DNA of 64,000 nucleotides from an uncultured Bdellovibrionales bacterium (GTDB lineage Bacteria; Patescibacteriota; Minisyncoccia; Moranbacterales; UBA9337): the NCBI GenBank assembly GCA_964605525.1, contig CAZSCV010000002.1:5888-69887 (forward strand), read 5' to 3'. Positions within the stretch are counted from its first letter, which is position 1. Every line of letters starts with the position of its first letter. Below the pieces are notes generated by a model. That model was not told the DNA's origin. It saw nothing but the letters and a program-made list of their open reading frames with translations, and did no database searches. A program made the translations under genes and the position numbers. This document shows positions 4,277 to 36,224 of the stretch, in pieces.

Positions 4277-4375
4277 AATTTTCAATTTTCAATTTTCAAT
4301 TTTCAAACAATTTTCAATTTATGAATTCAATAAATTGGGATTTAATTAGAAATTAGAAATTAGAAATTAGAAATT
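4277..4375 (+). repeat. two blocks of tandem heptamers, (AATTTTC)x4 and (TAGAAAT)x4, in the rpsL-rpsG spacer
   Basis: Direct reading: aattttc repeated 4 times at 4277-4304 (plus a degenerate copy), and tagaaat repeated 4 times at 4347-4374. Confidence 0.8.
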
Positions 4376-4384
4376 GAGGTAAAT

Positions 4385-4855
4385 ATGGCAAGAAGAAAAA
4401 GAAAATTTGCAGAAACTTGGAAACCGGATCCTAAATATGGAAATATTTTGGTAGGCCGTTTTGTTGGAAGTATTTTGAGGGACGGAAAAAGAAGCGTAGC
4501 GGAAAAGGTTGTCTATGAATCTTTTGAAGCTATTCATGAAAAAACCGGAAAGGGAGGATTGAATGTTTTTGAACAAGCTATTAAAAATGTTTCTCCACTC
4601 CTTGCAATCAAATCCCGCCGAATCGGGGGAGCAAATTATCAAGTTCCTGTCCAGGTTTCCGGCGAACGGCGCCAGACATTGGCAATGCGCTGGATAAAAG
4701 ATGCTTGCCGGGCGAGAAAAGGAAAAGGTATGGCTCAAAAACTTGCTGATGAACTTATTGAAGCGGCCCAAAAAACTGGAGCAGCAATGAAAAAAAGAGA
4801 GGATACACATCGAATGGCCGAAGCAAACAAAGCTTTCGCGCACTTTGGAAACTAA
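4385..4855 (+). CDS. rpsG: 30S ribosomal protein S7
   Basis: MARRKRKF..PDPKYGN..conserved S7 core; GAGG SD-like sequence 8 nt upstream. Confidence 0.96.
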   Translation: MARRKRKFAETWKPDPKYGNILVGRFVGSILRDGKRSVAEKVVYESFEAIHEKTGKGGLNVFEQAIKNVSPLLAIKSRRIGGANYQVPVQVSGERRQTLAMRWIKDACRARKGKGMAQKLADELIEAAQKTGAAMKKREDTHRMAEANKAFAHFGN

Positions 4856-19877: not shown

Positions 19878-20076
19878 GCGCTATTGACTTTTTGCTTTTT
19901 TGGGTGTATTATTATAAAGTTGCGTTTAAAACATATGCAATTGGTTTTTTTATGTCTAAAGCGCAGTTTTTAATTATAAAAAAAGTTAGTAACACATTAG
20001 AATTTTTATTATAAATATTCGTGTATTCGTATATTTGTATCCGCCGCCTGGCGGAGATTCGTAATATTCGTAAAAT

Positions 20077-21858
20077 ATGGAAATCAGAAACATTGCAATT
20101 ATTGCCCATGTGGATCATGGAAAAACAACCATTACCGATGCTATTTTGCGCCAAACTGGAATGGTTAGCGATGAAGGTGTCACGATGGATAGCAATGCCT
20201 TGGAGAAAGAAAGAGGGATCACGATTTATTCAAAAAATACATCCATCTTTTATAAGGATACGAAAATCAATATTGTGGATACACCCGGACATGCCGACTT
20301 TGGAAGTGAAGTGGAGCGCGTTTTGAGATCGATCGACAGCGTTGTTTTGGTGGTGGATGCGCAAGAAGGACCGATGCCACAGACGCGTTTTGTGCTTAAG
20401 AAATCCCTAGAATTGGGACTCAAGCCTATTGTAGTGCTTAATAAAATCGACAAGCCAGCCGCTCAGCCGGAAATTGCCAAGGAGCAAGTTTTCGAATTGT
20501 TTTTGGATTTGGGAGCCAGTGATGAACAATTGGAATTTACAACTGTGTATGCGATTGGAAGAGAAGGAATTGCGAAAATGAATTTGGAGGACGATTCAAA
20601 GGATTTAACCCCGCTTCTAGATACGATTTTAAAAGAAGTGGCACCGGCCAAATCGGACATTTCCGTTCCATTTCGAATGCAACCTTTTTCTTTGGGATAT
20701 GATAATTTCTTGGGACGCTTGGCGATTGGAAGGGTATATGAAGGAAAGGTGAAAAGCGGAGAGGTAATAATCAAAAAACCGGATGGAGAAACTCGCAAAG
20801 GGAAAATTATCAAGATTCAAACTTTCAAAGGATTGGTAAAAGAGGATGTTTCCGAGGCGATTGCCGGTGATATTGTGATGGTGGCGGGACTTCCGGATAT
20901 TTTTATCGGAGAAACAATTTGTGAAAATGAAGACCAGCAACCGCTTCCAGCGATCAAGGTTGATGAGCCAACGATTTCTTTGAATTTTATGGTTAATGAT
21001 TCTCCTTTTGCTGGACGCGAGGGAAAATTTGTGACAAATAAGCAAATTCGCGAGAGATTAGAAAAAGAACTTGAGGTAAATGTAGGACTTCGAATTGATT
21101 TTTCCTCCGATTCATATAAAGTTTACGGAAGAGGAGAATTGCATATTGCTGTGCTTCTTGAGAATATGCGTCGGGAAGGATTTGAAATTCAAGCTTCTCA
21201 GCCACAGGTTATTATCAAGGAAGATGGTGGGCAGAAAATGGAACCATTTGAAGAGGTAACCGTGGATGTTCCCGAGGCATTGTCTGGATCGGTGATTGAA
21301 AAAATTGGAAAACGGCAAGGAATAATGACAGAAATGAAACAGCGCAATGGACAAACGAGGATGATTTTTGCCGCTCCGACGAGAGGAATTTTGGGTTATC
21401 GAAGCCAGTTTATTGTTGATACGAAAGGTGAAGGAATTTTTTCCAGCCGGTTTTTGGAATTTCGTCCTTATGTCGGAGAAATTAAGAAGCGCAATGTTGG
21501 TTCAATGATTTCAATGATTGGCGGAAAAGCATTGGGATTTTCTTTGGCAAATCTTCAAGAGCGTGGAGTTTTGTATATTGGAGCGGGAACTGAAGTGTAT
21601 GAAGGGATGGTTATTGGCAATGTTTCCAAGGGGGAGGATATGTCGGTTAATCCAATCAAGGGAAAGCAACTTACGAATATGCGCGCCAGCGGTACGGATG
21701 ATGCAATTCAGCTTGTTCCTCCGACGAAATTGGATATTGAGAAGGGAATGGAATTGATGGCGGAAGATGAGTATTTGGAAGTGACCCCGCAAAGCGTCCG
21801 CCTGAGGAAACAATATTTGACTGAAAATGACAGAATAAGAGCAAAGAGGAAGAAATAA
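20077..21858 (+). CDS. typA: translational GTPase TypA/BipA
   Basis: [44 protein letters not shown]; ~600-aa BipA architecture. Confidence 0.92.
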
Positions 21859-31546: not shown

Positions 31547-33175
31547 ATGATAAAAAATAAAACAACAGATGAACAATTTAAAAAATGGCTTGAAGAGTCC
31601 GAAGGGATGAACTTGGAATTCAAAAAAGCGGAAAACAGTTTCAGTAAAACAAAAAATCTACCTGATTACTGTGCGGCAATTGCGAATGAAGGAGGAGGAA
31701 AATTAATATTGGGCGTTGATAATAACAAGAATATGTTCGGAACTAGCGCGTTTTTGGGAACATCTGACGGATTGTCGCACTATTTGTTGCAGAATCTTGG
31801 AATTAGGGTTGATGTTGAAGAAAAAATTTACCAGGAAAAAAGAGCGATTATTTTTCATATACCTGCCCGTCCGGTCGGAAGGATCGTGAGATCGACCGGG
31901 GAATATAATTATCCAATGCGAGCGGGTAGTTCTTTGGTTGAGATGAATCAAGATAAGATCAAAGAAATATTAAATGAAACAGAGCCCGATTTTTCTTGCC
32001 AGAATGTGAAAAATTTTTCATTGGCAGATATCGACGAAGAAGCGATAGATAATTTCAAGAAAATTTGGGCAAAAAAACAAAACAAGAAAGACTATCTGAC
32101 CTTTTCAATGGAGAAAACTTTAAAATCAATTGGCGCGATGGATGACGAGGGATTAAACAATGCCGCTTTGATACTTTTTGGTAAAAAGCGAAAAATTGAT
32201 CAACTGCTTCCTTGTGCTGAAATTATATTTGAGTGGAGACAGGTATCAAAAATTCGTCATGATTTTAGGAAGGATTGGAGAGAACCGTTTTTTAAGATTT
32301 ATGATGAAATTTGGGAAGTTATTAATGCAAGAAATTTAAGATTTCCATATCACGAAGGATTTATTCAGAAGGAAGTTGTTGCATTTAATGAAGAATCTAT
32401 CAGGGAAGCCATAGCGAATGCGATTGCGCATCGGGATTATAATGTTCAATCCTCTTCTATATTTATTAAGGCAACGTCGGAAAAATTTTCCATAAAGAGT
32501 CCTGGCGGGTTCGTTAACGGAGTAAATGCGGATAATATTCTCGAGAAATCGGAGTGGAGAAACCGGAGAATTGCGGAGATATTTCAGTTGGCTGGATTAG
32601 TTGAACGTTCAGGTCAGGGAATGGATATCATATTTGGTAATACTATACAGGAAGGAAAGGGTCTGCCTGATTTTTTGGGAACTGATAATTATTCTGTTAC
32701 TTTGAATATCCCAGCTACAGTAAAAGACAAGGAGTTTATAATGTTTTTGGAAAGAATAATAAATCAAAGACAAATCGCCTTATCTTTTGAAGAAATTTTG
32801 GAGTTAGAAAAAATAAGAGAAGAGAAAAAAGTTAAGGATATTGATTTTAAGGATAAATTTATAAAGCTTGGAATTGTGGAAAAAGTGGGAAAAACAAGCG
32901 GTTCTCAATATGTTTTATCTCATCGATATTATTCATTTAAAAATAAACTAGGTTTATATACTAGAATTGTTGGAATATCACGCGATGAAAAAAAACAATT
33001 AATTTTAACGCATCTCAAAAAGAACGAGAGGGGATTTGCACGAGATCTAAAAGATGCTTTTCCTGACTTGAAACCGAAAGACGTGTCAAATTTATTGCAA
33101 GAATTAAAAAAAGAGGGAAAAATTAAGCATAAAGGATCAGATAGAGGCGGTTATTGGATTTTATTAAACAAATAA
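31547..33175 (+). CDS. Schlafen-like AlbA_2 + HATPase_c_4 (RecG C-terminal-like) + wHTH protein; putative ATP-binding DNA-binding regulator/defence protein
   Basis: N-terminal EFKKAENSF..LPDYCAAIANEGGGKLILGVD matches the AlbA_2 (divergent AAA/Schlafen core) signature; AIAHRDYNVQSSSIFIK..SPGG matches HATPase_c_4; C-terminal winged-helix-like region. Confidence 0.65.
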   Translation: MIKNKTTDEQFKKWLEESEGMNLEFKKAENSFSKTKNLPDYCAAIANEGGGKLILGVDNNKNMFGTSAFLGTSDGLSHYLLQNLGIRVDVEEKIYQEKRAIIFHIPARPVGRIVRSTGEYNYPMRAGSSLVEMNQDKIKEILNETEPDFSCQNVKNFSLADIDEEAIDNFKKIWAKKQNKKDYLTFSMEKTLKSIGAMDDEGLNNAALILFGKKRKIDQLLPCAEIIFEWRQVSKIRHDFRKDWREPFFKIYDEIWEVINARNLRFPYHEGFIQKEVVAFNEESIREAIANAIAHRDYNVQSSSIFIKATSEKFSIKSPGGFVNGVNADNILEKSEWRNRRIAEIFQLAGLVERSGQGMDIIFGNTIQEGKGLPDFLGTDNYSVTLNIPATVKDKEFIMFLERIINQRQIALSFEEILELEKIREEKKVKDIDFKDKFIKLGIVEKVGKTSGSQYVLSHRYYSFKNKLGLYTRIVGISRDEKKQLILTHLKKNERGFARDLKDAFPDLKPKDVSNLLQELKKEGKIKHKGSDRGGYWILLNK

Positions 33176-34602: not shown

Positions 34603-34875
34603 ATGTATTTTAATTGGGTTGATTTCGTAGCTCTTTGGTTGGGTAGGGGCATTATTTATGCGTCTTTGGCAGTTTTTATATATTTATCTCTGTATTGGGC
34701 GTATATTGATTTTTTTCGAAAAAGACCATATTGTCCGAAATGTGGTTCGCGAAAATTGGCGACGGTCTGTGGAAATTCTTCAGGAGGTTATAGGTGTGCG
34801 GATTGTAGCACGCATTATTGGTGGGTGGGTGGATTGTGGCGGAGAGGAAAAAGCACACTTCAAAAACCCAAGTAA
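34603..34875 (+). CDS. small membrane protein with a C-terminal zinc-ribbon (CPKCG..CADC)
   Basis: Strong SD GAGGAGGT 8 nt upstream; 2 predicted TM helices; C4 motif; its 3' end overlaps the hypF-like gene, which runs convergently. Confidence 0.5.
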   Translation: MYFNWVDFVALWLGRGIIYASLAVFIYLSLYWAYIDFFRKRPYCPKCGSRKLATVCGNSSGGYRCADCSTHYWWVGGLWRRGKSTLQKPK

Positions 34876-36224
34876 TAAACAATTTGCCCAAAACTTAATC
34901 CTGCGTCGCCTCGGGGGATGGCCGGTGTTTCCGAAATGGAGATGCCGGCTTTTTTATTTTGTTTGGAGAAATATTGCGAGATTATTTTGTTATTGGAAAT
35001 TCCGCCAGAGAGGATGATGGGTGGCAGTTTGGAGGATTTCTGGATTCCCGCCTCCGCGGGAATGACAAGAGAGTGTTTTTTTATGATTTCATGGAGTCCT
35101 TGCGCAATGTAAAGCTGGGCGGTGGCGGCGAGGCGTTTTTTGTCTTTGTTTATGTTTTTAATCAGGTATTCGAATAAAAAAGTTGTATTTAAAATTGAAT
35201 TGTTTTTTATAATATTGATTTTCGGTTTTAGATCCGTGTATGGCGCGGAAGAATTAATTTCCAATAGATATGTTGCCTGATGTTTTGATTTTCTTTCATT
35301 TTTGCAAAAACCCAAAAGCAATGACACGGCATCCAAAATCCTGCCAGTGCTGGAAGTTTCTATACAGTTGAAATTTTGCTCAAGTTGGTTATATAAAAGT
35401 TCAAACTGATTTCGCGAGTAATATTTTTTAACGAAGTGAAATATGAAATCTTTTTTGTTTTTAAATTTATAAATTTTGTCATTGTTTGAAAATTTAAAAT
35501 TGAAAATTGAAAATTTATCCAAAATTGATATCAGTATTCTCGCCGGTTCCCGAATCGCCAACTCCCCGCCAATCATTATTTGATTTTCAAGATGCCCGAT
35601 CCTTTCAATTCGCATTTTTTGTTTGAAAATTTTGTCATTTGAATTTGAAAATTGTTTGGAAATTGCCAGCCCTAGGCTGGTCCGCCTTGGGCGGAAAAAT
35701 TGGAAATTGGAAATTGCGAAGCATTCTCCTCCCCAAATTTTCCCATCAGTGCCATATCCCGTGCCATCGAGAGCGATGCCATAAAATAAATTTGGAATTT
35801 GAACATTGGAATTTGAAAATTGTTTGGAAATTGCCAGCCCTAGGCTGGTCCGCCTTGGGCGGAAAAATTGGAAATTGGAAATTATCATATTTTTTCCCAG
35901 CTGGGAAAAAATATGAGCTATGTGGTGCTGGACTTGGATGTGTTTCGCTTTGTATTTTTTGGAAAGCTCGATTCCCAGTCGCGTGGTTTTGAAATCCGGA
36001 TGCAGGTCGGTGAGAATGACATCCGGTTTTATTTTCTTATTTTTTAAATATTTATTTAACTCTGTTTCGTATTTAGTGAAATTCACTTCTTTCAGAAGGT
36101 CGCCGAAATTTTGGGAGAAATGAATAATCCCATTTTTGAAAATTGAAAAATTCCCTGCAGATTCTGCGCCGAGGGCGAGGATGGTTTTTTTTGATCGGAT
36201 GTTCGGAACGCTGAATGTTTGCAT
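34860..36224 (-). CDS. hypF: HypF-like carbamoyltransferase, Kae1/YgjD-like C-terminal domain only (lacks the acylphosphatase, Zn-finger and YrdC domains)
   Basis: ILALGAESAGNFSIFKNGIIHFSQNFGDL, HPDFKTT, GIALDGTGYGTDGKIWGGE, LSGGISNN and C-terminal PRGDAGLSFGQ all match the HypF C-terminal domain; no room for the N-terminal domains before the next gene. Confidence 0.7.
   Translation of the reverse strand: MQTFSVPNIRSKKTILALGAESAGNFSIFKNGIIHFSQNFGDLLKEVNFTKYETELNKYLKNKKIKPDVILTDLHPDFKTTRLGIELSKKYKAKHIQVQHHIAHIFSQLGKNMIISNFQFFRPRRTSLGLAISKQFSNSNVQIPNLFYGIALDGTGYGTDGKIWGGECFAISNFQFFRPRRTSLGLAISKQFSNSNDKIFKQKMRIERIGHLENQIMIGGELAIREPARILISILDKFSIFNFKFSNNDKIYKFKNKKDFIFHFVKKYYSRNQFELLYNQLEQNFNCIETSSTGRILDAVSLLLGFCKNERKSKHQATYLLEINSSAPYTDLKPKINIIKNNSILNTTFLFEYLIKNINKDKKRLAATAQLYIAQGLHEIIKKHSLVIPAEAGIQKSSKLPPIILSGGISNNKIISQYFSKQNKKAGISISETPAIPRGDAGLSFGQIVYYLGF
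35641..35883. repeat. two identical 75-bp GC-rich palindrome-containing repeats (35641-35715 and 35809-35883) inserted in-frame within the hypF-like CDS
   Basis: Identical 75-nt copies spaced 168 bp apart; each carries CCAGCC-cta-GGCTGG and CCGCC-ttg-GGCGG hairpins; they encode the duplicated peptide ISNFQFFRPRRTSLGLAISKQFSNS flanking the conserved DGTGYG..WGGE motif. Confidence 0.85.

What the first reader, a model, noticed from the sequence alone, without database searches (positions are those of the whole stretch)
35641..35883. Two identical 75-bp palindromic GC-rich elements inserted in-frame inside the hypF-like coding sequence (RPE-like behaviour)
Identical 75-nt copies (25 codons each) lie 168 bp apart inside the hypF-like CDS. 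They flank the universally conserved DGTGYGTDGKIWGGE motif and each adds the peptide ISNFQFFRPRRTSLGLAISKQFSNS. Each copy holds two perfect hairpins (CCAGCC-cta-GGCTGG and CCGCC-ttg-GGCGG) and is far more GC-rich than the surrounding gene. The flanks are made of TTGAAAAT/TTGGAAAT oligomer repeats. This is the signature of a small palindromic mobile element that inserts in-frame into genes, as described for Rickettsia palindromic elements. Such elements are not, to my knowledge, reported for this kind of genome.
Basis: seen in the sequence. Interest (0 to 1): 0.7.

Follow-up and report, generated by a model that had tools for sequence, protein, structure and literature searches.

The report
Tiny twin-hairpin insert inside hypF gene
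Two identical GC-rich 30-base "twin hairpin" inserts sit in frame inside a hydrogenase-maturation gene of a candidate-phyla-radiation (CPR) bacterium, and the same 30-base module turns up in many unrelated genes of many bacterial phyla, behaving like a very small selfish DNA whose mover is unknown.

Summary
Two 75-nt identical copies (35641-35715 and 35809-35883) lie 168 bp apart inside a 454-aa HypF C-terminal-domain gene. They bracket the DGTGYGTDGKIWGGE motif, and each holds two perfect hairpins.

- The AT-rich flanks are heptamer-repeat inserts. Many Moranbacteria homologs share them at the same two loops.
- The recent, lineage-specific piece is a 30-nt module, CCAGCC-NNA-GGCTGG-T-CCGCC-TNN-GGCGG-A. 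It is exactly 10 codons and folds completely into two 6-bp hairpins.

A close relative has the same flanks but lacks exactly these 30 nt. The module occurs in more than 120 species-representative genomes: many CPR classes, Omnitrophota, Planctomycetota, Bdellovibrionales, Pseudomonadota and others. It sits mostly inside housekeeping genes, commonly read as SAxGGPAxGW.

Comparisons of filled and empty sites (hypF, tgt, tRNA fragments) show exact 30-nt insertion with no target duplication, next to an A-run. In Tgt the same codon position was gained or lost at least 20 times among 120 homologs.

It behaves like a Rickettsia palindromic element (RPE) but is not one. The mobilising enzyme is unknown. 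I found no published description.

The parts
34860..36224 (-). Host gene: short HypF made only of the Kae1-like C-terminal domain, 454 aa (protein P0001, Parcubacteria group bacterium Athens0714_25)
   Evidence: The ORF is listed. Pfam matches are HypF_C (3.8e-22) and HypF_C_2 (1e-45). Solved HypF structure 4g9i matches at 1.7e-30. A family of 364-517-aa homologs in Moranbacteria appears.
35834..35863 (+). Twin-hairpin module, copy at protein site 1. Sequence CCAGCCCTAGGCTGGTCCGCCTTGGGCGGA on the + strand. The gene reads its reverse complement as (F)RPRRTSLGLA, residues 121-131.
   Evidence: Relative L001 lacks exactly these 30 nt.
35666..35695 (+). Twin-hairpin module, copy at protein site 2 (residues 177-187). 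Identical to the other copy, loops included.
   Evidence: Absent from L001 and from P0009 at the same site.
35809..35883 (-). 75-nt identical composite, site 1: heptamer-derived AT-rich flanks plus the core. Encodes ISNFQFFRPRRTSLGLAISKQFSNS.
   Evidence: L001 has the same flanks without the core.
35641..35715 (-). 75-nt identical composite, site 2
35613..35665 (-). Downstream half (in gene orientation) of the AT-rich insert at site 2, CAATTTCCAAACAATTTTCAAATTCAAATGACAAAATTTTCAAAC..., encoding ISKQFSNSNDKIFKQK. It is shared with distant homologs.
   Evidence: One search shows ISNFQFPISNQFSNSNDKISKQK in P0005, P0006, P0009, P0011 and others. One search gives 88% nt identity to the P0009 gene, against 57-65% in the flanking coding sequence.
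35715..35807 (-). Segment between the two inserts. It encodes NVQIPNLFYGIALDGTGYGTDGKIWGGECFA, the conserved beta-hairpin of the active site.
   Evidence: The AlphaFold2 (AF2) model places strands at residues 146-151 and 167-172. This segment is deleted in variant L002.
35459..35527 (-). Third AT-rich heptamer-derived insert, without a core. Encodes SIFNFKFSNNDKIYKFK.
   Evidence: Family D3, the period-7 array, and the alignment.
35044..35063 (-). A different in-frame GC palindrome, ATTCCCGC-CTCC-GCGGGAAT, read as IPAEAGIQ, in the same gene
   Evidence: Absent from P0003. pLDDT is below 50 at residues 391-396.

Best explanation
The two 75-nt repeats are composites of two layers.

Layer 1 (older). 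AT-rich inserts derived from tandem heptamers (AATTTCC/AATTTTC) occupy two surface loops on either side of the catalytic beta-hairpin of this short HypF. Many Moranbacteria homologs share them.

Layer 2 (recent, seen only in this strain among the homologs examined). A 30-nt twin-hairpin module, CCAGCC-NNA-GGCTGG-T-CCGCC-TNN-GGCGG-A, has entered each heptamer array.

What the module is. It belongs to a widespread family of tiny selfish DNA.
- It is inserted as an exact 30-nt block with no target-site duplication.
- It lands at sites of the form Y[C/G/T]^A-R-A-M. Read on the other strand, that is just 3' of a T-run such as TTTT, TTCT or GTTT.
- Such sites are frequent in A-rich heptamer arrays, in codons for Gly/Asp-Phe, and in T-loop-like sequence.

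Why it survives inside genes.
- Thirty nt is 10 codons, so it can never shift the frame.
- It persists where the frame through it has no stop codon and the site is a loop.
- It is then translated as a short unstructured peptide, here FRPRRTSLGLA and most often SAxGGPAxGW. Afterwards it decays like any weakly constrained loop.

Inferred, not shown.
- The module most likely moves as folded single-stranded DNA, handled in trans by an enzyme that recognises the two stems. The nearest model is an HUH/Y1 transposase of the IS200/IS605 or REP-associated tyrosine transposase (RAYT) kind, because the stems are invariant in young copies while the loops are free.
- One copy in hypF probably arrived first and was copied into the second heptamer array by intragenic gene conversion. 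That would explain 75 nt of perfect identity, loops included.

Consequence. The resulting direct repeat makes the gene prone to a 168-bp deletion that removes the active-site motif. This deletion is seen in L002, as a real allele or as an assembly collapse.
For: Shown.
1. Exact presence or absence.
 - Window versus L001: identical AT flanks and a 30-nt difference.
 - tgt of L007 versus L145: ggtttt|30 nt|gatggt against ggtttt|gacgga.
 - In L060 and L087 a tRNA fragment differs from a tRNA-like copy in the same locus by exactly 30 nt, not 29 or 31. In L060 that copy is the intact tRNA-Pro.
2. Spread. It gave 128 copies in unrelated genes and taxa. The exact window 30-mer, loops included, occurs in tgt of another metagenome in the same FRPRRTSLGLA frame (L134) and in L077, L091 and L137.
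3. Conservation beyond what the search pattern demanded. The spacer is T in 113/118 copies and the 3' base is A in 113/118. The next positions are R, A, M (A 90 and G 21; A 106; A 73 and C 25). Position -2 is a pyrimidine in 110/118. Loop 1 ends in A in 107/118 and loop 2 starts with T in 110/118.
4. Coding context. 81 of 128 copies lie in open spans of at least 150 codons. All six frames are used, and 43 are in the SAxGGPAxGW frame.
5. Turnover in Tgt. Of 120 Moranbacteria Tgt proteins, 52 carry a 10-aa insert at one identical position and 57 carry none. At least 20 gain/loss steps are needed on a neighbour-joining (NJ) tree. Peptides that fit intact stems sit on isolated tips inside clades without the insert, and decayed peptides (SVKEEPALEW, SDKSGSVLGW) sit in older clades.
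6. Loop location. The AF2 model gives pLDDT below 50 exactly at residues 113-142 and 176-202, between well-modelled strands. Alignment to solved HypF structures shows the same two gaps.
7. The heptamer layer is older. Homologs carry ISNFQFPISNQFSNSNDK without the core. Only P0001 and P0002 among 120 homologs have the core.
8. Heptamer arrays attract GC palindromes in general. P0010 carries a different one, CCTGCCTGCCGGCAGGCAGG, in two arrays of its hypF. Composites of the form GAAAATTG-core-AAAATTG occur in gatA, lepA, ligA, mnmA, tgt, metG and other genes.
Against: - No mobilising enzyme was identified, so the single-stranded-DNA/HUH mechanism rests only on analogy: no duplication, terminal hairpins, a fixed flank.
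- Only two copies occur in 64 kb, both in one gene. This genome therefore shows no burst of copies.
- Flanking 7-mer direct repeats are more frequent than chance (15 observed against 2.9 expected at 6 or more of 7 matches). This could mean a duplication in some events rather than insertion into pre-existing arrays.
- Empty sites could be precise excisions rather than sites that were never filled.
- Stem invariance is partly a product of ascertainment, because the search pattern required exact stems.
- Translation of the inserts is inferred from open frames and the decay pattern, not from protein data.
- Taxon labels on some third-party (TPA) assemblies may be wrong.
Confidence: 0.72

Rival explanations
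1. Assembly artefact: a single insert was duplicated, or a repeat was mis-joined, so the gene really has one copy.
For: An independent ENA contig (L002, 100% identical elsewhere) has only one copy and lacks exactly one 168-bp period.
Against: - The one-copy version deletes DGTGYGTDGKIWGGE, which is nearly invariant across the aligned homologs and matches solved HypF structures. It is therefore the defective or collapsed form.
- Relatives from other samples (L001, L144) have AT-rich inserts at both sites with the motif between them.
- The two-copy ORF is intact and gives a confident model outside the insert loops and the C-terminal ~25 residues.
Confidence: 0.03
2. No mobile element: the inserts are ordinary lineage-specific low-complexity loop expansions of this protein family. 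They arose by replication slippage and were then shaped by selection on the protein.
For: - The AT-rich flanks are tandem heptamers.
- They are shared by many homologs at the same loops.
Against: - This does not account for the GC core. The identical 30-mer occurs in unrelated genes and phyla.
- The core is absent from the closest relative, with exact 30-nt boundaries.
- It appears and disappears at least 20 times at one Tgt codon position.
- Slippage does not create a conserved twin palindrome.
Confidence: 0.06
3. A host-functional nucleic-acid signal rather than selfish DNA. The twin hairpin would be a binding or processing site kept by selection, for example an RNA stability or cleavage element, a site for a nucleoid or repair protein, or a segment removed from the RNA.
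For: - The stem sequence is identical across phyla while the loops are free.
- Orientation is biased in genes, 56 copies against 25.
- There is a weak bias relative to GC skew, 58 against 32.
- The module occurs in tRNA-like sequence.
Against: - In older Tgt clades the peptide, and therefore the stems, decays freely. The hairpins are thus not maintained once inserted.
- The tRNA-context copies checked lie in partial duplicates or beside the intact tRNA gene, never inside it, so no RNA removal is needed.
- No Rfam family matches. The best hit is a CRISPR-repeat model at 22.6 bits against a threshold of 38.
- No terminator or promoter signal was found.
- Copy number is very low here, 2 in 64 kb.
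Confidence: 0.1
4. Two independent insertions of the module into the two heptamer arrays of hypF, instead of one insertion followed by gene conversion.
For: - The module is strongly site-specific and repeatedly hits the same site in orthologs.
- Both arrays offer the same ATTG^RAAA target.
- P0010 likewise has one type of palindrome in two arrays.
Against: - Both loops and 75 nt of flank are identical in the two copies.
- Copies elsewhere in one genome usually differ in their loops: L038, L104, L016, L049 and L134.
- The two arrays in relative L001 differ from each other.
Confidence: 0.25

Closest known systems
Rickettsia palindromic elements (RPEs; Ogata et al. 2000, as summarised in review PMC10969869)
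   Same: Both are palindromic selfish DNA found inside protein-coding genes, inserted in frame, read through, and placed so that the host protein keeps its fold. Both also occur between genes.
   Different: RPEs are about 150 bp, form ten families and are confined to Rickettsia. Here the moving unit is 30 nt (10 aa) and has two abutting 6-bp hairpins. It is found across CPR and several other phyla. It is nested in a second, AT-rich layer. Copy number in this window is only 2.
REP / REPIN sequences mobilised by RAYT (REP-associated tyrosine transposase) enzymes
   Same: Similar size class (20-40 nt). Both are GC-rich hairpins with conserved stems and freer loops, and both are presumably handled as single-stranded hairpins. 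Neither has terminal inverted repeats of the classical kind.
   Different: REPs are extragenic, carry a conserved 5' GTAG, come in hundreds of copies, often as inverted pairs, and sit in genomes that have a RAYT gene. This module is mostly intragenic, has no GTAG, is low-copy here, and has no known enzyme.
IS200/IS605-family elements and their non-autonomous, palindrome-associated derivatives
   Same: Hairpins at both ends, no terminal inverted repeats, no target-site duplication, and insertion next to a short fixed sequence. Excision is exact in that family (general knowledge of the family), and here empty sites differ from filled ones by exactly the element.
   Different: Known members are at least about 100 nt and carry guide sequences beside the hairpins. 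Here 30 nt leaves no room for these. A TnpA gene was not looked for genome-wide. Strand bias is weak and confounded.
[quoted passage not shown]
   Same: Both are small non-autonomous repeats that can lie within ORFs and add peptides.
   Different: MITEs have terminal inverted repeats and target-site duplications and are 50-500 bp. Here there is no duplication, and the ends are two separate hairpins.

Membership tests
Rickettsia palindromic elements (RPE) | Element of about 100-150 bp belonging to one of the Rickettsia RPE sequence families | tested here: not met
   The unit that is present or absent is 30 nt, and the composite is 75-88 nt. The host is a CPR bacterium. The RPE size is taken from PMC10969869. 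Sequence similarity to RPE consensus sequences was not tested.
Rickettsia palindromic elements (RPE) | Inserted in frame in protein-coding genes and read through | tested here: met
   The 454-aa ORF is intact through both copies. 81 of 128 family members lie in open spans of at least 150 codons.
Rickettsia palindromic elements (RPE) | The insert lies in a loop or on the surface and does not disrupt the fold | tested here: met
   The AF2 model has pLDDT below 50 only at the inserts, a short loop at residues 157-161 and the C-terminal ~25 residues, and the strands flanking the inserts are modelled well. Solved HypF structures show gaps at the same two places. This rests on prediction, not experiment.
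Rickettsia palindromic elements (RPE) | Many dispersed copies within one genome | tested here: not met
   Only 2 copies occur in the 64-kb window, both in one gene. The rest of the genome could not be scanned.
REP/REPIN (RAYT-mobilised) | GC-rich palindrome of 20-40 nt | tested here: met
   30 nt, two perfect 6-bp stems
REP/REPIN (RAYT-mobilised) | Extragenic location | tested here: not met
   63% of copies lie in long open frames. Hosts include dnaJ, cca, miaA, tgt, hisS and gap.
REP/REPIN (RAYT-mobilised) | Conserved GTAG at the 5' end | tested here: not met
   The position table shows no GTAG at either end.
REP/REPIN (RAYT-mobilised) | RAYT gene present in the same genome | not testable with these tools
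Classical MITE | Target-site duplication flanking the element | tested here: not met
   Exact 30-nt differences in hypF, tgt and tRNA fragments. The excess of flanking 7-mer repeats is explained by insertion into heptamer arrays, but is not fully resolved.
Classical MITE | Terminal inverted repeats | tested here: not met
   Each end pairs within its own hairpin. The two termini, CCAGCC and TCCGCC, match each other at only 4 of 6 positions.
IS200/IS605-type non-autonomous element | No terminal inverted repeats, no duplication, hairpins at both ends | tested here: met
IS200/IS605-type non-autonomous element | Insertion immediately 3' of a fixed tetra- or pentanucleotide | tested here: inconclusive
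   There is a strong flank bias, A-R-A-M on one side, which reads K-T-Y-T 5' of the TCCGCC end on the other strand. It is degenerate, and no cleavage data exist.
IS200/IS605-type non-autonomous element | Cognate Y1 HUH transposase in the genome, and a lagging-strand bias | not testable with these tools
   The enzyme could not be searched genome-wide. Orientation relative to GC skew is 58 against 32 and is confounded with gene orientation.
HypF carbamoyltransferase (host gene) | Kae1-like C-terminal domain with the DG.GYG.DG..WGGE motif | tested here: met
HypF carbamoyltransferase (host gene) | N-terminal acylphosphatase, zinc-finger and YrdC-like domains in the same protein | tested here: not met
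   The ORF covers only the region matching residues of about 392-759 of 4g9i. All 120 best homologs are 325-517 aa with only the two C-terminal Pfam domains.

The most novel reading that the evidence does not exclude
The 30-nt twin hairpin would be the smallest known actively mobile DNA. It has no coding capacity and no room for guide sequences. It is inserted without duplication at a short A/T-run target and hits the same codon position again and again in essential genes (tgt, miaA, cca, dnaJ). It is shared with identical stems by CPR bacteria, Omnitrophota, the Planctomycetota-Verrucomicrobiota-Chlamydiota (PVC) group, Bdellovibrionales and Pseudomonadota. This would imply a still unidentified enzyme that handles hairpins, is either horizontally mobile or universal, and continuously writes 10-residue loops into bacterial proteins.
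Probability: 0.4. Interest if true: 0.85.

Novelty: new variant of a known kind. Interest (0 to 1): 0.66.

Why it matters
If the reading holds, in-frame selfish DNA, so far best known from Rickettsia, is common in the reduced genomes of CPR bacteria and reaches other phyla in a far smaller form: 30 nt, always 10 codons.

- Annotation. It would explain many odd 10-residue inserts (SAxGGPAxGW and its other reading frames) and part of the length variation in CPR housekeeping proteins. It also gives a practical flag for such insertions and for repeat-driven deletions or assembly collapses.
- Strain tracking. Presence or absence of the module is a fine-scale marker for following strains.
- Mobile-DNA research. 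It defines a testable problem: find the enzyme that recognises two 6-bp stems and pastes them beside a T-run without a duplication.
- This gene. The pair of identical repeats brackets the active-site hairpin of HypF and creates a ready-made 168-bp deletion allele.

Tried and rejected
1. RNA-level removal (a mini-intron). The idea came from copies in T-loops, anticodon loops and D-regions of tRNA-like sequence. I rejected it because ARAGORN and direct reading show that these copies lie in partial tRNA duplicates or beside the intact tRNA genes, never inside them.
2. Known RNA family. Rfam gave nothing at gathering score over the whole window. Only sub-threshold hits appeared, for example CRISPR-DR58 at 22.6 bits against 38. 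With two copies and a coding spacer, this is not a CRISPR array.
3. Promoter or terminator role. No terminator-like site at the elements, and the promoter-like matches (6 found against 2.8 expected) are weak consensus hits.
4. Target-site duplication. Flanking 7-mers match more often than chance, but every filled/empty pair differs by exactly 30 nt.
5. Replication-strand bias. It is weak (58 against 32) and confounded with gene orientation.
6. The AT-rich 72-nt unit as a dispersed repeat. Apart from short heptamer-array matches, it was found only in hypF homologs, plus a 41-nt partial match in the intergenic region at 4277-4317.
7. Phage or plasmid vectors. One hit in 2.9 million viral contigs and none of substance in plasmids.
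8. Many copies in 'Candidatus Moanabacter' as evidence of a burst. They are passengers about 150 nt downstream of a DDE transposase gene in a multicopy insertion sequence.
9. Literature. Searches by sequence string and by topic found no description. The library is partial, so prior description cannot be excluded.
Full report
**The observation**

- The repeat finder gives an 88-nt direct repeat (35628-35715 and 35796-35883, 95% identity). All four mismatches are in the first 13 nt, so 35641-35715 and 35809-35883 are identical over 75 nt. The spacing is 168 nt, or 56 codons.
- The GC core occurs exactly twice in the window and never in shuffled sequence.
- A scan for perfect GC-rich hairpins finds five in 64 kb against 0.3 in shuffles. 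Four of the five are these.
- The 30 nt CCAGCCCTAGGCTGGTCCGCCTTGGGCGGA fold completely into two abutting 6-bp hairpins with 3-nt loops, about -12 kcal/mol as DNA, z about -4.7, on either strand.

**The host gene**

- The copies lie in ORF 34860..36224 on the minus strand, 454 aa. It matches the Pfam families HypF_C and HypF_C_2 and the C-terminal Kae1-like half of solved HypF structures.
- It is identical to a protein of 'Parcubacteria group bacterium Athens0714_25'. It belongs to a large family of short HypF proteins (325-517 aa among the 120 best) in Moranbacteria-like candidate-phyla-radiation (CPR) genomes.
- Alignment to the solved structures shows two extra stretches of about 30 residues on either side of GIALDGTGYGTDGKIWGGE.
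- An AlphaFold2 model built on 22 homologs has pLDDT below 50 at residues 113-142 and 176-202, exactly the two inserts. They lie between confident strands at 146-151 and 167-172.
- The inserts are therefore predicted loops on either side of the catalytic beta-hairpin.

**The 75-nt unit is a composite**

- In the alignment of 22 homologs, many proteins carry ISNFQFPISNQFSNSNDKISKQK at the second site. Some carry a similar peptide at the first site. None of these has the central FRPRRTSLGLA.
- At the DNA level, the closest independent relative (L001, protein P0003, 81% aa identity and about 95% nt identity nearby) has AATTTCCAATTTCCAATTTC|CAATTTCCAAACAATTTTCAAATTC at site 1. That is the same AT-rich sequence minus exactly 30 nt. 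It also lacks the core at site 2.
- A homolog at only 56% aa identity (P0009) has the AT-rich insert at site 2 without the core. The insert is 88% identical in DNA, against 57-65% for the flanking coding sequence.
- Among the 120 best homologs only P0001 and P0002 carry the core. 45 carry NFQF-type peptides.
- The flanks are period-7 tandem arrays. Similar arrays occur between genes in this window: at 4277-4375, and around a single hairpin at 20040.
- So the flanks are an older, widely shared layer, and the 30-nt twin hairpin is the recent, lineage-specific layer.

**The 30-nt module elsewhere**

- The genomes are mostly CPR of many classes. They also include Omnitrophota, Planctomycetota, Lentisphaerota and Kiritimatiellia, Verrucomicrobiota, Bdellovibrionales, Pseudomonadota and one Leptospira. 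Some labels from third-party assemblies may be unreliable.
- Positions the pattern left free are nevertheless conserved:
  - the spacer is T in 113/118 copies and the base after the second stem is A in 113/118;
  - the next three positions are R, A, M;
  - position -2 is a pyrimidine in 110/118;
  - loop 1 ends in A (107/118) and loop 2 starts with T (110/118);
  - the other loop positions vary freely.
- The unit is therefore CCAGCC-NNA-GGCTGG-T-CCGCC-TNN-GGCGG-A, 30 nt.
- In the fetched loci, single TCCGCC-NNN-GGCGGA hairpins also occur (16 times). GC-rich hairpins with 6-bp stems are about 17 times more frequent than in shuffles.

**Where it sits**

- 81 of 128 copies lie in open spans of at least 150 codons, against 82% of random positions. 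All six frames are used, but 43 are in the frame giving SAxGGPAxGW.
- Host genes, identified by reading the flanking peptides rather than by domain searches, include the G/F region of dnaJ, the CCA-adding enzyme, miaA, hisS, tgt, gap, polA, uvrC, RNase R, an epimerase, aminoacyl-tRNA synthetases and a full-length hypF.
- The window copies use a rarer frame, FRPRRTSLGLA, because loop CTA would read as a stop codon in the common frame.
- A metagenome scan for the composite RAAATTG-core-ARAAATTG found 19 loci: in gatA, lepA, ligA, a mur ligase, mnmA, tgt, lgt, a prepilin peptidase, metG and prmC, and between genes. One of these, tgt in L134, has the identical 30-mer in the same FRPRRTSLGLA frame.
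- P0010 carries a different GC palindrome, CCTGCCTGCCGGCAGGCAGG, nested in two heptamer arrays of its hypF. Heptamer arrays therefore seem to be general landing sites for GC palindromes.

**How it gets in**

Every filled/empty comparison I could make differs by exactly 30 nt.
- hypF, window versus L001.
- tgt of L007, ggtttt|tccgcc...ggctgg|gatggt, versus L145, ggtttt|gacgga.
- tRNA fragments versus a tRNA-like copy in the same locus, L060 and L087. Removing 30 nt restores the match, and removing 29 or 31 does not. In L060 the matching copy is the intact tRNA-Pro.

So there is no target-site duplication. The insertion point lies between Y[C/G/T] and an A-run. On the other strand that is just 3' of TTTT, TTCT or GTTT.

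Flanking 7-mer direct repeats are in excess (15 against 2.9 expected). I attribute this to insertion into pre-existing heptamer arrays, but it is not fully resolved.

The tRNA-context copies first suggested removal at the RNA level. The copies checked lie in partial tRNA duplicates or beside the intact gene, never inside it, so that idea is not needed.

**Turnover**

- Among the 120 best Moranbacteria Tgt homologs, 52 have a 10-residue insert at one identical position (IGF|DGY), 57 have none, and 11 have a short unrelated peptide.
- The inserts range from perfect (SAQGGPALGW, SAKGGPALGW) to decayed (STKGGPAVGW, SVKEEPALEW, SDKSGSVLGW).
- On a neighbour-joining tree that excludes the insert, presence or absence needs at least 20 changes. 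Random labels need 39 on average and never fewer than 32.
- Perfect copies sit on isolated tips inside clades that lack the insert, for example P0121 next to P0122.
- This fits repeated site-specific gain, with or without exact loss, followed by ordinary decay. It argues against a maintained host function for the hairpins.
- One protein, P0186, has a second decayed copy nested inside the first.

**Interpretation for the window**

- One twin hairpin entered a heptamer array of hypF in this strain's recent ancestry. The second copy, identical over 75 nt including both loops, is best explained by conversion between the two arrays. Copies elsewhere in one genome usually differ in loop sequence.
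- Two independent hits remain possible, at about 25%.
- The direct repeat now brackets the active-site hairpin. An otherwise identical ENA contig (L002) lacks exactly one 168-bp period and with it the motif. This is either a real deletion allele or an assembly collapse, and I cannot tell which.
- The two-copy form is the functional-looking one.

**Mechanism**

- What is shown: an exact 30-nt block, no duplication, hairpins at both ends, a short preferred flank, stems invariant in young copies, and loops free.
- The closest known way of moving such DNA is the single-strand 'peel and paste' of IS200/IS605 Y1 transposases and of the REP-associated tyrosine transposases (RAYT) that mobilise REPs. 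I adopt this as the most likely mechanism at about 30-35% confidence.
- No enzyme was identified. Thirty nt leaves no room for the guide sequences those systems use.
- Orientation relative to GC skew is only weakly biased and is confounded with gene orientation.
- The many copies in 'Candidatus Moanabacter' are passengers in a DDE-type insertion sequence and say nothing about the module's own mobility.
- Phages and plasmids do not carry it.

**Comparison with known elements and novelty**

- It works like a Rickettsia palindromic element (RPE): palindromic, in frame, in loops. It fails membership on size, on taxon, and on copy number within the 64-kb window (for the RPE definition).
- It resembles REPs in size and hairpin nature, but it is mainly intragenic and lacks GTAG.
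- Full-text searches by sequence and by topic found no description. The library is incomplete, so I rate it a new variant of a known kind rather than categorically new.

Noticed in passing
window 35044-35063 (minus-strand gene): A third, unrelated in-frame GC palindrome, ATTCCCGC-CTCC-GCGGGAAT, lies in the same hypF gene and is read as IPAEAGIQ. The other frames of the same DNA give WIPASAGMT and LDSRLRGNDK. It is absent from relative P0003. A similar peptide occurs in P0005. pLDDT is below 50 at residues 391-396.
   Followed up: partly
window 20040-20055: A single hairpin, TCCGCC-gcct-GGCGGA, with the same stem as the second hairpin of the module. It lies between genes, just upstream of an ORF that starts at 20078 and carries a GTPase-type HVDHGKT motif, and is flanked by ATTCGTA-type heptamer repeats.
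   Followed up: partly
window 4277-4375: An intergenic composite upstream of the ORF that starts at 4385 (MARRKRKFAE…): four AATTTTC repeats, an AT-rich imperfect palindrome, then four to five AATTAGA repeats. Its left part is 90% identical over 41 nt to the AT-rich insert in hypF.
   Followed up: partly
window 34860-36224 and homologs P0001-P0120: HypF here is only the Kae1-like C-terminal half, with no acylphosphatase, zinc-finger or YrdC domain. This short form is conserved in Moranbacteria next to hypE and NiFe-hydrogenase genes. Where the carbamoyl-adenylate-forming half is encoded was not examined.
   Followed up: no
L002 3001-4197 (ENA contig k139_711985): A contig 100% identical to the window across the aligned region, except for a 168-bp deletion between the two repeats. 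It gives a 398-aa HypF without the active-site motif. This is either a real recombination allele or an assembly collapse.
   Followed up: partly
L031, L043, L060, L063, L082, L085, L020, L086, L064, L111, L016: Many intact tRNA genes have, 20-100 nt away, a partial duplicate of their own 5' or 3' part. The twin hairpin sits in the duplicate (T-loop, anticodon loop or D region), never in the intact gene. The origin of these short tRNA-fragment duplications is unexplained.
   Followed up: partly
L146 (tgt, protein P0186): A decayed second twin hairpin, TCAGCCCGAGGCTGATGAGCCTTGGGTTCA, is nested in opposite orientation inside the first copy. The result is a 20-residue insert.
   Followed up: partly
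L143 (hypF of P0010): A different palindrome, CCTGCCTGCCGGCAGGCAGG (peptide LPAGR), is nested in two separate heptamer arrays of one hypF gene. This parallels the arrangement in the window.
   Followed up: partly
L033 1536-3206 and 3847-5517, plus 12 other loci of 'Candidatus Moanabacter': A multicopy insertion sequence encodes a 556-aa DDE_Tnp_1 transposase and carries one twin hairpin about 150 nt downstream of the gene.
   Followed up: partly
window 35613-35716 versus L144 956-1027: The AT-rich insert at hypF site 2 is 88-93% identical in DNA between genes that share only 56% protein identity (57-65% nt identity in the flanks). The cause may be AT-biased codons on a conserved peptide, homogenisation, or separate acquisition. 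It is not resolved.
   Followed up: partly
window 31547-33175: A 542-aa ORF lies next to hypE, where relative L001 has hypD and hypC. The gene table for the identical contig L002 lists Pfam SLFN_AlbA_2 and HATPase_c_4 for it. This is a local gene-order difference.
   Followed up: no
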